Assembly: GCF_030013205.1 (NCBI RefSeq) | Contig: NZ_CP122648.1 | Source: Escherichia coli | GTDB taxonomy: Bacteria > Pseudomonadota > Gammaproteobacteria > Enterobacterales > Enterobacteriaceae | Reading direction: 5' to 3' (one strand) | DNA: 64,000 nt | Part shown: positions 6,825 to 10,304 of the stretch, piece after piece | Layout of the letters: each line of letters opens with the position of its first letter | How positions within the stretch are numbered: the stretch's first letter is position 1 | The notes under the pieces: generated by a model | What the model was told of the DNA's origin: nothing | Databases searched by the model: none | The model's input: only the letters and a program-made list of their open reading frames with translations | Position numbers and translations under genes: made by a program

Positions 6825-8198
6825 TTAGTGGTTTTCAGCCAGCTGACGATCATGGCGGCGCTTAAACATCCAGCCAATCAACAGCACAACAATCCACGCG
6901 AAACCGACATACAGCGAGATACGCGTATCAGGGTGATAACCAATCAACCCGATAATAAAGAGCAGGAAAATCAAACCGCCGATGGTCGTTGCTACCCCAC
7001 CCGGTACTTTAAATTTCAGCGCCTTAACTTCTTCTGGCGGTAAACGGCGACGGAAGGCGATTTGCGACAGCAGGATCATAATCCACACCCACACCGTGGC
7101 GAAGGTCGCCAGCGAAGCGATCACCAGGAAGACGTTTTCCGGCATGATGTAGTTCAGATATACCGCAAACAATAGCGCGGTAGTCATCACCAGCACCGTG
7201 ACCCACGGAATACCACGACGCGACGTTTTGCTGAAAATTTTTGGCGCGCTGCCCTGCCCTGCCATACCATGGAGCATACGGCCTACGCCAAATACGTCAC
7301 TGTTAATTGCCGAAAGCGAAGCGGTCAGCACAACAAAGTTAAGGATGCTGGCGGCAAAGGTAATCCCCATATGCTGGAACGTCAGTACGAACGGGCTACC
7401 GGCAGTGCCAACCTGATTCCACGGGTAGATAGACATAATGACGAACAGCGTACCGACGTAGAACACCAGAATACGCATCGGCACGGAGTTAATCGCGCGC
7501 GGAATAGATTTCTCAGGATCTTTCGCTTCACCGGCGGTAATCCCGATAATTTCGATCCCACCGTAAGCAAACATCACCATTTGCAACGACATCACCATAC
7601 CAAGCCAGCCGTTACTGAAGAAGCCGCCGTTGCTCCACAGGTTATGAATACCGGTCGGTTGCCCGCCGTTGCCAATCCCCCAGATGATGATGCCGAAACC
7701 GGCAACAATCATGATGATGATGGTGGCGACTTTAAAGAACGAGAACCAGAATTCCAGCTCACCGAAGACCTTCACGCTCATCAGGTTTACGGCGCAAATG
7801 ATCAGCACCACGCTCAGTACCCAAATCCAGTGCGGCACCGTTGGGAACCAGACACCCATATAGATACCAAAAGCGGTCACATCGGCGATGGCGACAATAA
7901 GGATTTCAAAGCAGTAGGTCCAGCCGGTAATGTAACCTGCCAGCGGGCCGAGGTTTTCCTGCGCATAACGGGAAAAAGAGCTGGCGGCCGGGTTATGTAC
8001 CGACATTTCCCCCAGCGCACGCATAATGATATACGCCGCGACACCACCGATAATATAGGCCAACAACACGCTCGGACCGGCCATTTTGATGGCGTCTGCC
8101 GAACCGTAAAACAACCCAGTGCCAATTGCTGAACCCAGTGCCATAAAGCGTATGTGGCGGGTACTTAGCCCACGCTTTAGCTTGTTCTTACTTTCCAT
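6825..8198 (-). CDS. proY: proline-specific permease (APC family)
   Basis: 457-aa match to E. coli ProY starting [10 protein letters not shown]; the ORF-track start at 8201 is one codon upstream. Confidence 0.93.
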
Positions 8199-8264
8199 CA
8201 ATTCCTAACCCATCAACACAATAATAAATATCCTCCGGCATAGCCGGAGGTTTTTCAAATGCGC

Positions 8265-8978
8265 CTATAAGGCTCTCTTACCAGCCGCGCCCTAACAGGC
8301 GCACACGATCTGACATTTGCATCCAACTTCGTTACTTACGGCCCGTAAACGGGCTGCCCGGATAGGGAATCGATAACTGCTCTCCCATTTTATCCTCTTC
8401 AAGCTGGTGCTTTATGTAATCCTGTATCTTCGCCGTGTTCTTACCCACCGTATCGACGTAGTACCCTCTGCACCAGAACTCCCTGTTCCTGTATTTGAAT
8501 TTCAAATCACCAAACTGCTCGTAAAGCATCAGACTGCTTTTCCCTTTCAGATATCCCATAAAGCCGGATACGCTCATTTTGGGCGGGATCTCCACAAGCA
8601 TATGGATATGATCTGCACAGCATTCAGCTTCCAGAATCCGTACACTTTTCCACTCACACAGCTTTCTCAAAATACTGCCTATTGCTCTACGCTTCTCTCT
8701 GTAGAACACCTGTCTTCGGTATTTTGGCGCAAAAACTATGTGATATTTACAGTTCCATCGGGTGTGCGCTAAGCTCTTTTCGTTCCCCATTGGGACCCCC
8801 TTTTGATTTCTTGTTTGACACTTGCAGTTGCCAGACCGCAAGGTGTTTTAACAAATCAAAAGGGGTTTTAATAACTGGCTTAAAGCTGAAAGCTTTCCGG
8901 ACCCCCCAGCCTAGCTGGGGGTTTTCTGTGCACAAAAAACCACGGGGCATCGCAGCCCCGTGGTTAAAACAAATGTTC
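8265..8978 (-). mobile_element. IS200 insertion sequence (IS200/IS605 family)
   Basis: Encodes an IS200-type TnpA; left end (high coordinates) has two perfect hairpins at 8901-8922 and 8938-8966, the outer one followed by a T-run on the minus strand. Size about 0.7 kb, consistent with IS200. Ends approximate. Confidence 0.8.
8332..8793 (-). CDS. tnpA: IS200 transposase TnpA (HUH/Y1 single-strand transposase)
   Basis: Translation MGNEKSLAHTRWNCKYHIVFAPKYRR...HIHMLVEIPP...YVDTVG is near-identical to remembered Salmonella IS200 TnpA and includes the His-hydrophobic-His motif; the ORF-track start at 8841 is an upstream extension. Confidence 0.9.
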   Translation of the reverse strand, partial: PMGNEKSLAHTRWNCKYHIVFAPKYRRQVFYREKRRAIGSILRKLCEWKSVRILEAECCADHIHMLVEIPPKMSVSGFMGYLKGKSSLMLYEQFGDLKFKYRNREFWCRGYYVDTVGKNTAKIQDYIKHQLEEDKMGEQLSIPYPGSPFTGRK

Positions 8979-8984
8979 AGTGAT

Positions 8985-10304
8985 TTAGTGAGCGCTGGAG
9001 GTCACCTGACGACCTGCCGCGCGATCCCAGATAATGGCCAGAACCACCATCACCACTGTTGGCATTAACCACGCCAGACCTTGTTCGGCCAGCGGTAAAC
9101 GCTGCGCCCAGGACGGTAAGATATCGCTGAATGCAGATGCTTTGATCCCGTCGAGAATACCAAAAAGCAGGCTGATAAACATCGGCGGAGCAATCACGCG
9201 GGACGAATTATGCCACCATGAGCGTGTAAAACTTAATACAACCAGTGCGATACACGGCGGATAAATGGCGGTCAGCACCGGTACAGAGATCTGAATCAGC
9301 TGACTCAAGCCGAGGTTAGACACCACCATCGAGAAGCCGCCGAGGATAAACACCAGCGTACGATAAGAGAGCGGTACGTACTGGGCGAAGAATTCTGCAC
9401 AAGCACAGGTCAGGCCAACCGCCGTGACCAGGCAGGCGATGAAGATTAACGCCGCCAGCAGGAAGCTACCGCCGCCGCCAAAGGTATGCTGAACGTAAGC
9501 ATGCAGAATAGCAGCGCCGTTTGCAGACTGATCGACCAGCGACGCGCTGTCTGAACCCAGACGGAACAGCGCCAGGTACAGCAGAGTCAGACCAACACCC
9601 GCCATCAGGCCAGCCCAGACGGTATAACGGGTCAGCAGACGCGCTTCGGTAACGCCACGAGAACGCGCCGCGTTAACAATAACGATACCAAACACCATCG
9701 CGCCCAGCGTATCCATGGTCAGATAGCCGTTGACGAAGCCGTTAGAAAACGCAGCGTTTTGATAAGCCTCAGTCGCCGTGCTGATAGAACCCGCCGGCCA
9801 GACAATCGCGGCAACAGACAGGATGACCAGCGCGATAATTTTCAGCGGCGCAAGGAAGTTGCCCACGGTATCCAGCAGTTTGCCCGGATAGAGCGAAACC
9901 AGAATAACGATAGCGAAATAAACCAGGCTGTAGATAAACAGCGGCAGTGCGGAATCACCCGTCAGCGGCGCAATGCCCACTTCAAAAGAAACGGTAGCTG
10001 TACGCGGCGTAGCGAAAAGCGGCCCCACCGCCAGGTAACACACCGTTGCCAGCAGCACGCCAGCGACTTTACCGATTGGCGTGCTGAGGCTGTCAACACC
10101 GCCGCCAACTTTTGCCAGCGCCACTACCGTTAATACCGGCAGGCCAACGGCAGTAATGAGGAAGCCGAATGCCGCAGTCCAGACGTGTTCGCCTGCCTGT
10201 AAGCCGACCATTGGAGGGAAAATAATGTTACCTGCGCCGACGAACAACGCAAATGTCATAAAGCCCAGAGCGATGATATCGCGCGATCTTAATTGATGGG
10301 TCAT
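8985..10304 (-). CDS. brnQ: branched-chain amino acid transporter (LIVCS family)
   Basis: 439-aa multi-pass membrane protein matching E. coli BrnQ. Confidence 0.93.

What the first reader, a model, noticed from the sequence alone, without database searches (positions are those of the whole stretch)
8198..8990. Possible polar effect of the IS200 terminator on proY
brnQ and proY are co-directional on the minus strand with proY downstream. The IS200 left-end hairpin at 8938-8966 is followed by a T-run on the minus strand and so reads as a rho-independent terminator, placed a few bp after the brnQ stop. Read-through transcription from brnQ into proY would be blocked. proY would then depend on its own promoter or on one created by the insertion; a second hairpin with a T-run at 8233-8251 sits just upstream of the proY start.
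Basis: inference. Interest (0 to 1): 0.4.

Follow-up and report, generated by a model that had tools for sequence, protein, structure and literature searches.

The report
IS200 inserted behind brnQ's own terminator
The hairpin blamed on the IS200 insertion is the bacterium's own brnQ transcription terminator, present in strains without the insertion; IS200 landed at its tail, as these elements usually do, so this is an ordinary, already annotated insertion.

Summary
Both hairpins exist and look like terminators, but the main one is misattributed. Alignment with an IS-free E. coli shows a 711-bp IS200C at 8223-8933 (minus strand). The hairpin at 8938-8965 and its T6 run lie outside the IS. They are the resident brnQ intrinsic terminator, present in IS-free E. 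coli and at the same position in five other IS-free Enterobacterales.

So read-through from brnQ into proY already met this hairpin before the insertion. IS200 did not create that block.

The real IS200 left-end terminator is 8902-8921, and the hairpin at 8232-8250 is the IS right-end hairpin. IS200 inserted at the last T of the terminator's T-tract. That is the rule for this group: 77 of 95 junctions from many phyla, against 0.8% of random positions, and 5 of 5 other E. coli copies whose left end could be read.

The insertion does add 711 bp and two more hairpins between brnQ and proY. Extra polarity on proY is therefore plausible, and IS200 insertions are known to be polar, but it is untested. 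proY is intact and described as cryptic (in Salmonella). The same junction occurs in 207 of 5,426 complete E. coli genomes. Low interest.

The parts
8985..10304 (-). brnQ coding sequence (branched-chain amino acid transporter), stop codon at 8985-8987
   Evidence: ORF list. RefSeq annotation of the identical locus in strain K_EC180. Pfam Branch_AA_trans, E = 1.5e-163.
8934..8965 (-). Resident intrinsic terminator of brnQ: stem-loop 8938-8965 (AACCACGGGGC-TGCGAT-GCCCCGTGGTT) followed by a T-tract that ends at 8934. This is host DNA, not part of IS200.
   Evidence: Terminator scan. Inverted repeat with 11/11 pairs. Fold -23.5 kcal/mol, z = -4.24. Present unchanged in the IS-free site of strain 13E0725. 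A hairpin plus T-run follows brnQ in five IS-free Enterobacterales loci, L123-L127.
8223..8933 (-). IS200C, 711 bp, left end at 8933 and right end at 8223. Precise insertion with no target duplication, between TTTTTT and ATTGTG of the empty site. The boundary is ambiguous by at most 2 nt because T's are shared.
   Evidence: Alignment with the empty site. Other IS200C copies match exactly to 8223. The five copies measured at other E. coli loci are all 711 bp, as is this locus. PGAP annotates it as 'IS200/IS605-like element IS200C family transposase'.
8902..8921 (-). True IS200 left-end hairpin (CCCCCAGC-TAG-GCTGGGGG, about IS nt 13-32). This is the published bidirectional terminator. The canonical U-run (UUUUC) is on the plus strand.
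   Evidence: It is the first stem of the Rfam STnc490 match. Ellis 2015 and 2017 place the terminator at nt 12-34 and report about 85% termination of upstream transcripts.
8800..8923 (-). IS200 left end and tnpA 5' UTR structure. It includes the long stem-loop that sequesters the tnpA Shine-Dalgarno sequence.
   Evidence: Rfam RF01405 STnc490: 141.8 bits against a gathering score of 56, E = 1.5e-30, full length. Fold of 8785-8930: -56.4 kcal/mol, z = -4.2.
8332..8790 (-). tnpA, the IS200 Y1 (HUH) transposase, 152 aa, intact
   Evidence: Pfam Y1_Tnp PF01797, E = 3.8e-38. RefSeq CDS WP_000526135.1 at the identical locus.
8232..8250 (-). IS200 right-end subterminal hairpin (CCTCCGGC-TAT-GCCGGAGG), followed by ATATTTATT up to the IS end at 8223. 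It is terminator-like on both strands.
   Evidence: The same hairpin and tail are found at the right end of the other E. coli IS200C copies and of Yersinia pestis IS1541 copies.
8199..8222 (-). 24 nt of host DNA left between the IS right end and the proY start codon (ATTGTGTTGATGGGTTAGGAATTG). It carries the proY ribosome-binding site.
   Evidence: Read directly from the sequence and from the alignment with the empty site.
6825..8198 (-). proY coding sequence (amino-acid permease called cryptic in Salmonella), intact. The annotated start is the ATG at 8198.
   Evidence: RefSeq annotation. Pfam AA_permease, E = 7e-115. 99% identity over the full length to E. coli ProY.

Best explanation
The locus is brnQ, then its own intrinsic terminator, then IS200C, then proY, all on the minus strand. 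The strong hairpin plus T6 at 8934-8965 is the brnQ terminator found throughout Enterobacterales. IS200C (8223-8933) inserted at the 3' edge of that terminator's T-tract, in the same orientation as brnQ. This is the usual landing site of IS200-group elements. Their target is a T-rich tail (consensus TTNTT) lying 6-9 nt after a G+C-rich hairpin, which resembles the element's own right end (hairpin plus ATATTTATT). The IS is thereby shielded from host transcription by the host terminator and by its own left-end terminator (8902-8921).

For proY, the first block to brnQ read-through existed before the insertion and is essentially unchanged. The proximal T6 is kept; only the distal tail changes, from ATTGTG to GTGCAC. 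The insertion adds a second terminator hairpin 12 nt further on, 711 bp of weakly translated RNA, and a third hairpin (8232-8250) with a U-rich tail about 33 nt before the proY ATG. Any brnQ-derived transcription of proY should therefore fall further. The only new source of proY transcription would be read-through from the weak tnpA promoter.

Shown here: the boundaries, the host origin of the hairpin, the target rule, and that all three genes are intact. Inferred: the size and even the direction of the effect on proY.
For: IS boundaries and host origin of the hairpin come from the alignment with the IS-free strain 13E0725. The IS-free architecture is the common one: 5,425 of 5,426 complete genomes match the region, but only 207 carry the filled junction.

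Conservation: a CCACGG-type hairpin plus T-run follows brnQ in IS-free Salmonella-like, Enterobacter, Citrobacter, Pectobacterium and Serratia loci, with stem and loop changes that keep pairing.

Terminator features are supported.

IS200 identity: Y1_Tnp, an Rfam STnc490 match over the left end, and the PGAP annotation.

Target rule: 77 of 95 unique left-end junctions from many phyla have a terminator-like hairpin plus T-run ending within 3 nt of the IS end, against 153 of 20,000 random positions in the same loci. In 99 junctions T is present at -1 in 99, at -2 in 98 and at -5 in 96, and the last G-C pair of the host stem lies mostly 6-9 nt from the insertion point. Five other E. coli IS200C copies, behind gndA, traD, lom, emrB and plaP, show the same arrangement; the sixth locus fetched, L133 with a frameshifted tnpA, did not match the left-end pattern and could not be read.

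Literature: the IS200 left end at nt 12-34 is a bidirectional terminator that stops about 85% of upstream transcripts, and IS200 was found as a polar hisD insertion (PMC4513863, PMC5435999). brnQ-proY is listed as one operon (PMC8743547). ProY is cryptic in Salmonella (PMC11808508). Terminator-like sequences are most enriched upstream of IS200/IS605 elements (bioRxiv 10.1101/2025.07.22.666184).

The simple scan finds no sigma-70-like promoter on the minus strand between 8000 and 9200.
Against: There are no expression data for this locus, so neither the termination efficiency of the brnQ hairpin nor the source of proY transcripts is known. 3'-end mapping supplements could not be searched successfully. 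The promoter scan is a crude consensus match and would miss weak or non-sigma-70 promoters. A proY promoter overlapping the terminator, or one inside the 3' end of brnQ, is not excluded. The IS200 left-end hairpin has no U-run on the sense strand in this copy (GGGGGGTCCGG), and its roughly 85% efficiency was measured for the Salmonella element, not for IS200C. The comparison across genera rests on five loci only.
Confidence: 0.85

Rival explanations
1. One reading: the 8938-8965 hairpin is the IS200 left-end terminator, brought in by the insertion, and it newly blocks brnQ-to-proY read-through.
For: The hairpin is real, terminator-like, and lies next to the IS. IS200 does carry a left-end terminator.
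Against: The hairpin lies outside the 711-bp insertion and is identical in the empty site. It is present at the same position in IS-free genera. Other IS200C copies have different host hairpins in this position. The published left-end terminator at nt 12-34 corresponds to 8902-8921.
Confidence: 0.02
2. The insertion silences proY more completely because it destroys or displaces proY's own promoter. The native promoter would overlap the terminator T-tract or the 3' end of brnQ. The IS now separates it from proY by 711 bp and two hairpins.
For: In the empty site only 24 nt lie between the insertion point and the proY ATG. Any dedicated promoter must therefore overlap or precede the insertion point.
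Against: No sigma-70-like promoter was found on the minus strand in 8000-9200. brnQ-proY is listed as one operon. proY remains intact in the lineages that carry the IS, although these are too closely related for decay to be expected.
Confidence: 0.15
3. The insertion is neutral for proY or activates it. Transcripts from the IS200 tnpA promoter read through the right-end hairpin into proY, 24 nt beyond the IS end, and replace or exceed the small amount of brnQ read-through.
For: tnpA and proY are co-directional. The proY ribosome-binding site is intact. On the sense strand the right-end hairpin has an interrupted U-tail (AUAUUUAUU), which is a weaker terminator signature than U6.
Against: The tnpA promoter is described as intrinsically weak. 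The right-end hairpin still scores as terminator-like on the minus strand. IS200 insertions are described as polar, not activating.
Confidence: 0.15

Closest known systems
IS200 / IS200C of Salmonella and E. coli (IS200/IS605 family, IS200 group), including its left-end terminator (Beuzon et al. 1999, as cited in PMC4513863 and PMC5435999)
   Same: A single Y1 transposase gene and no target duplication. Left-end hairpin at about nt 12-34, a 5' UTR stem-loop over the ribosome-binding site, a right-end hairpin, and an STnc490/art200 region. PGAP annotates it as IS200C.
   Different: 711 bp here against 707 bp for the Salmonella element. In this copy the sense-strand tail of the left-end hairpin is GUCCGG rather than UUCAG.
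hisD984::IS200, the original polar IS200 insertion (Lam and Roth 1983, cited in PMC4513863)
   Same: IS200 placed between a promoter and a downstream gene is expected to lower expression of that gene.
   Different: hisD984 lies inside a coding sequence of a well-expressed operon. Here the IS sits in an intergenic spacer, after a pre-existing terminator and upstream of a gene described as cryptic (in Salmonella), so the added effect may be small.
IS1541 between pheL and pheA in Yersinia (PMC3082878) and the IS1541 copies of Y. pestis
   Same: An IS200-group element lodged in a region that contains a terminator or attenuator, between two co-directional genes. The Y. pestis IS1541 copies examined here follow the same hairpin plus T-run target rule.
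   Different: A different host and locus. There the insertion is thought to disable attenuation control of pheA.
IS608 / ISDra2 target selection (Barabas et al. 2008, cited in PMC6006769)
   Same: Insertion occurs 3' of a short specific sequence on one strand, with no duplication. The top strand matches the lagging-strand template: plus-strand GC skew is negative across the window.
   Different: The IS608 target is TTAC with no hairpin requirement. IS200-group targets are TTNTT 6-9 nt after a G+C-rich hairpin. Recognition by the GAAAA run 5' of the IS hairpins is my inference by analogy and was not tested.
[quoted passage not shown]
   Same: [quoted passage not shown] This locus is one example.
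   Different: That work interprets the pattern as limiting transposase expression. In the passages I read it does not give the TTNTT consensus, the 6-9 nt spacing, or the resemblance to the right end.

Membership tests
IS200 (IS200/IS605 family, IS200 group) - for 8223-8933 | Encodes a single Y1 (HUH) transposase of about 150 aa | tested here: met
   Pfam PF01797 Y1_Tnp, E = 3.8e-38, 152-aa intact ORF. RefSeq names it an IS200C family transposase.
IS200 (IS200/IS605 family, IS200 group) - for 8223-8933 | About 0.7 kb, with no terminal inverted repeats and no target-site duplication | tested here: met
   A 711-bp precise insertion relative to the empty site, with no duplicated flank. The five other E. 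coli copies that could be measured are also 711 bp.
IS200 (IS200/IS605 family, IS200 group) - for 8223-8933 | Left end with a perfect hairpin at about nt 12-34, followed by a 5' UTR stem-loop that covers the tnpA ribosome-binding site | tested here: met
   Hairpin at 8902-8921. Full-length Rfam STnc490 match at 141.8 bits. Fold with z = -4.2.
IS200 (IS200/IS605 family, IS200 group) - for 8223-8933 | Subterminal hairpin at the right end | tested here: met
   Hairpin at 8232-8250, 9 nt from the IS end, shared with other IS200C and IS1541 copies.
   It lies outside the 711-bp insertion and is present in the empty site. Other IS200C copies have unrelated host hairpins at this position.
Intrinsic (rho-independent) terminator - for 8934-8965 | G+C-rich stem-loop directly followed by a U-tract on the transcribed strand, just downstream of a stop codon | tested here: met
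   11-bp stem (8 G-C pairs), 6-nt loop, then U6, starting 19 nt after the brnQ stop.
Intrinsic (rho-independent) terminator - for 8934-8965 | Conserved at the same position in related genomes, with pairing maintained | tested here: met
   A hairpin plus T-run follows brnQ in five other genera. Stem and loop sequences differ but pairing is kept. The sample is small and no formal covariation test was run.
Intrinsic (rho-independent) terminator - for 8934-8965 | Produces transcript 3' ends in vivo | not testable with these tools
   Supplements of the 3'-end mapping papers held no brnQ or proY entries, or were not held.
Polar insertion mutation (effect on proY) | Lower expression of the downstream gene than in the isogenic IS-free state | not testable with these tools
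   This needs RNA or reporter measurements. Sequence only shows the added hairpins and the added distance.

The most novel reading that the evidence does not exclude
IS200-group transposases do not merely tolerate intrinsic terminators; they actively select them. In single-stranded DNA a terminator (G+C hairpin, then a 6-9 nt T-rich tail ending TTNTT) mimics the element's own right end (hairpin plus ATATTTATT). The tail could be read by the conserved GAAAA run that precedes both IS hairpins, as the guide tetranucleotides do in IS608. If so, every terminator whose coding strand is the lagging-strand template would be a potential landing pad, and each insertion would re-create a new pad at its right end. 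That would explain the tandem IS1541 arrays. The brnQ-proY insertion is then one predictable hit, with little consequence of its own.
Probability: 0.45. Interest if true: 0.45.

Novelty: already known. Interest (0 to 1): 0.15.

Why it matters
For this locus it matters little. It corrects an annotation-level misreading, and it shows that proY already sat behind a strong, conserved terminator before IS200 arrived. That fits the description of proY as cryptic (shown in Salmonella) and makes a large new polar effect unlikely.

The practical lesson for genome readers is more general. A terminator-like hairpin abutting the left end of an IS200-type element is normally the host gene's terminator, which is the insertion target, and not part of the element.

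The wider pattern, IS200-group elements landing at TTNTT tails of terminators in many phyla, has recently been reported at family level. It could help predict insertion hot spots and define IS boundaries, but it is a side result here.

Tried and rejected
1. I looked for in-vivo 3'-end or operon evidence for brnQ and proY in supplements of eLife 2021 (PMC7815308), mBio 2014 (PMC4161252) and NAR 2018 (PMC6061677). There were no entries, or no files were held.

2. I tried to read the primary IS200 and IS1541 papers: He 2015 (PMID 26350330), Odaert 1998 (PMC106867), Beuzon 1999 (PMC148624) and Beuzon 1997 (PMC146608). None is held. Statements on the left-end terminator are therefore taken second-hand from Ellis 2015 and 2017.

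3. One literature search was too broad and gave nothing useful.

4. The weak Rfam match of the right-end hairpin to AgvB (21.3 bits against a gathering score of 56, E = 0.26) was rejected as a generic hairpin plus U-run resemblance.

5. I looked by eye for an outward-facing or hybrid promoter at the IS right end. TTGAAA and TATTAT-like hexamers are 26 nt apart. I rejected this because the spacing is wrong and the scan found nothing on the minus strand.

6. I considered that the hairpin might belong to a longer IS200 variant, because BLAST matches of other copies run to 8939. This was rejected: the extra 6 nt are the T-run shared by all target sites.
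Full report
**What is at the locus.** The window carries, all on the minus strand, brnQ (8985-10304), a 152-aa IS200 transposase gene (8332-8790) and proY (6825-8198, annotated ATG at 8198). phoR lies upstream and malZ downstream. Pfam assigns the three proteins to Branch_AA_trans, Y1_Tnp and AA_permease. An identical stretch in E. coli K_EC180 is annotated by RefSeq as brnQ, 'IS200/IS605-like element IS200C family transposase' and proY. The organism is therefore E. coli and the element is a known, annotated IS.

**Checking the observation.** Both hairpins exist.
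- The first has 11-nt perfectly complementary arms at 8938-8948 and 8955-8965 with a 6-nt loop. On the minus strand it is followed by TTTTTT and is listed as terminator-like. It folds at -23.5 kcal/mol, z = -4.24, and none of 200 shuffles folds as well.
It has 8 pairs, 7 of them G-C. Its clean T-run is on the plus strand, and its tail on the minus strand is ATATTTATTATTGTG.

**Where the IS begins and ends.** I aligned the minus strand of 8170-9010 with the same region of an IS-free strain, 13E0725 (L001). The result is one clean 711-bp insertion.
- The empty site reads ...CCACGGGGCTGCGATGCCCCGTGGTTTTTT^ATTGTGTTGATGGGTTAGGAATTGATG(proY).
- The filled site reads ...GTGGTTTTTT[GTGCACAGAAAACCCCCAGC ... 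GGAGGATATTTATT]ATTGTG...
- The IS therefore occupies 8223-8933, with at most 2 nt of ambiguity because T's are shared, and there is no target duplication.
- The right boundary agrees with the point where other IS200C copies stop matching (query position 124 = 8223). Those copies match 6 nt beyond the left end only because they too are preceded by a T-run.

The 8938-8965 hairpin and its T6 are therefore host DNA and are identical in the strain without the IS. The published IS200 left-end terminator at nt 12-34 (PMC4513863) corresponds to 8902-8921. That hairpin is also the first stem of a full-length Rfam STnc490 match (8800-8923, 141.8 bits). The hairpin at 8232-8250 lies 9 nt inside the right end. 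It is the IS200 right-end subterminal hairpin and recurs at the right end of every other copy examined.

**The hairpin is the native brnQ terminator.** I fetched the brnQ-proY spacer from five IS-free Enterobacterales through ProY homologues: a Salmonella-like contig, Enterobacter, Citrobacter, Pectobacterium and Serratia. brnQ-proY synteny holds in all five. In each, brnQ is followed by a CCACGG-type hairpin and a T-run. Loop and stem sequences differ but pairing is kept, for example GGGGC/GCCCC, GGGGCC/GGCCCC, CAGGTA/GCCTG and GGAC/CCGT-type variants. In E. coli and the Salmonella-like locus the T-tract ends only about 24 nt before the proY ATG. proY thus sat directly behind a strong terminator before any IS arrived. 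This fits the database listing of brnQ-proY as one operon (PMC8743547) and the description of ProY as a cryptic permease (PMC11808508). The simple scan finds no sigma-70-like promoter on the minus strand between 8000 and 9200.

**Why the IS sits exactly there.** I scanned one genome per species for the exact 19-nt left-end hairpin. This returned 120 loci from many phyla, including 27 loci of Yersinia pestis IS1541.
- In nearly every IS200-type junction the 60 nt upstream of the left end hold a different G+C-rich hairpin followed by a T-run that abuts the IS.
- Of 95 unique junctions, 77 have a terminator-like hairpin plus T-run ending within 3 nt of the IS end. The figure for random positions in the same loci is 153 of 20,000. 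Most of the 18 misses are visibly imperfect hairpins.
- Over 99 junctions, T is present at -1 in 99, at -2 in 98, at -5 in 96, at -4 in 87 and at -3 in 65. The consensus is TTNTT. The last G-C pair of the host stem lies mostly 6-9 nt from the insertion point.
- Six other E. coli IS200C loci were fetched. In the five whose left end could be read, behind gndA, traD, lom, emrB and plaP, the arrangement is the same, and each element is co-oriented with the upstream gene. The sixth, L133 with a frameshifted tnpA, did not match the left-end pattern.
- The element's own right end is a hairpin plus ATATTTATT, which is 9 nt ending in TTATT. A terminator therefore looks like a right end. Tandem copies exist in which one IS sits directly after the right end of another (L097, L098, L100, L114, L076).
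- A conserved GAAAA run precedes both IS hairpins. By analogy with the guide tetranucleotides of IS608 (Barabas 2008, cited), it could read the T-rich tail. This is inference only.
- Plus-strand GC skew is negative across the whole window. The IS top strand is therefore the lagging-strand template, as expected for this family from my own knowledge of it.
[quoted passage not shown] The pattern is therefore not new.

**Consequences for proY.**
- Shown: the first barrier to brnQ read-through predates the IS and keeps its stem and proximal U6. Only the distal tail changes, from AUUGUG to GUGCAC.
- Added by the IS: the left-end hairpin 12 nt further on, reported to stop about 85% of incoming transcripts in the Salmonella element (PMC5435999); 711 nt of RNA whose only ORF is poorly translated; and the right-end hairpin with a U-rich tail.
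- Inferred: brnQ-derived transcription of proY falls further. A weak contribution from the tnpA promoter reading through the right end is possible.
- proY, its ribosome-binding site and tnpA are all intact.
- The size and direction of the net effect cannot be obtained from sequence. My searches for 3'-end data failed.

**Distribution.** The exact brnQ-IS200 junction is present in 207 of 5,426 complete E. coli genomes. These include porcine ETEC and O139:H1 strains at 100% identity and a set of human isolates at 99.5%. The genomes listed carry about 5-33 places matching the junction query, i.e. IS200 left-end copies, most of them 19-33. Natural filled and empty comparators are therefore available.

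**Verdict.** Polarity of IS200 is a known property and is plausible here, but the cited hairpin is the resident brnQ terminator, so the supposed new block is not new. The feature is an ordinary, already annotated IS200C insertion at the element's usual kind of target.

Noticed in passing
L003-L122 (left-end junctions), L128-L132; window 8934-8939: IS200-group elements from many phyla sit immediately after a host G+C-rich hairpin plus T-run. 77 of 95 junctions show this, against 0.8% of random positions. The target consensus is TTNTT, 6-9 nt after the stem. This mimics the element's own right end (hairpin plus ATATTTATT).
   Followed up: yes
L097 348, L098 about 3115, L100 about 2042, L114 24 (Yersinia pestis); L076 (Mailhella): Tandem IS1541/IS200 copies in which the left end of one copy directly abuts the right end of another (…CCGGAGGATATTTATT|GTGCCCAG). 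This suggests that each insertion re-creates a target at its right end.
   Followed up: partly
L085-L095 (Ruminococcus MAG), L029, L032: The same 19-nt hairpin CCCCCAGCTAGGCTGGGGG occurs in a different multi-copy element with unrelated flanks (AATAAGCAT-hairpin-TATTTCTTTAACGGGCGAAGCCC). It mostly lies at contig ends. The element was not identified.
   Followed up: no
L074 about 2120-2180 (Dickeya undicola): A solo left-end hairpin flanked by its own inverted 12-mer (GTCTATAGAAAA-hairpin-TTTTCTATAGAC), between a host terminator T-run and an A-run, with no transposase gene. It may be a remnant or a miniature palindromic derivative.
   Followed up: no
L003-L084: The exact 19-nt left-end hairpin is identical in elements from Pseudomonadota, Bacillota, Desulfovibrionaceae, Elusimicrobia and Saccharibacteria, although the surrounding left-end sequence differs. 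This implies strong constraint or recent horizontal spread.
   Followed up: no
window 8840-9040; hits H31-H70: The same brnQ-IS200 junction occurs in porcine ETEC and O139:H1 strains (100% identity) and in a separate set of human isolates (99.5%). The listed genomes have about 5-33 matching places each, most of them 19-33. I did not resolve whether this reflects shared ancestry, recombination or repeated hits at a hot spot.
   Followed up: partly
window 1-64000: Plus-strand GC skew is negative in all four 16-kb quarters. The minus strand, which carries brnQ, tnpA and proY, is therefore the leading-strand sequence, and the IS top strand is the lagging-strand template.
   Followed up: partly
window 6825-8198; L002 1226-2599: ProY in the IS-carrying strain K_EC180 has a different RefSeq protein accession (WP_192297416.1) from the common E. 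coli ProY (WP_001295329.1). There is therefore at least one substitution. The difference was not examined.
   Followed up: no
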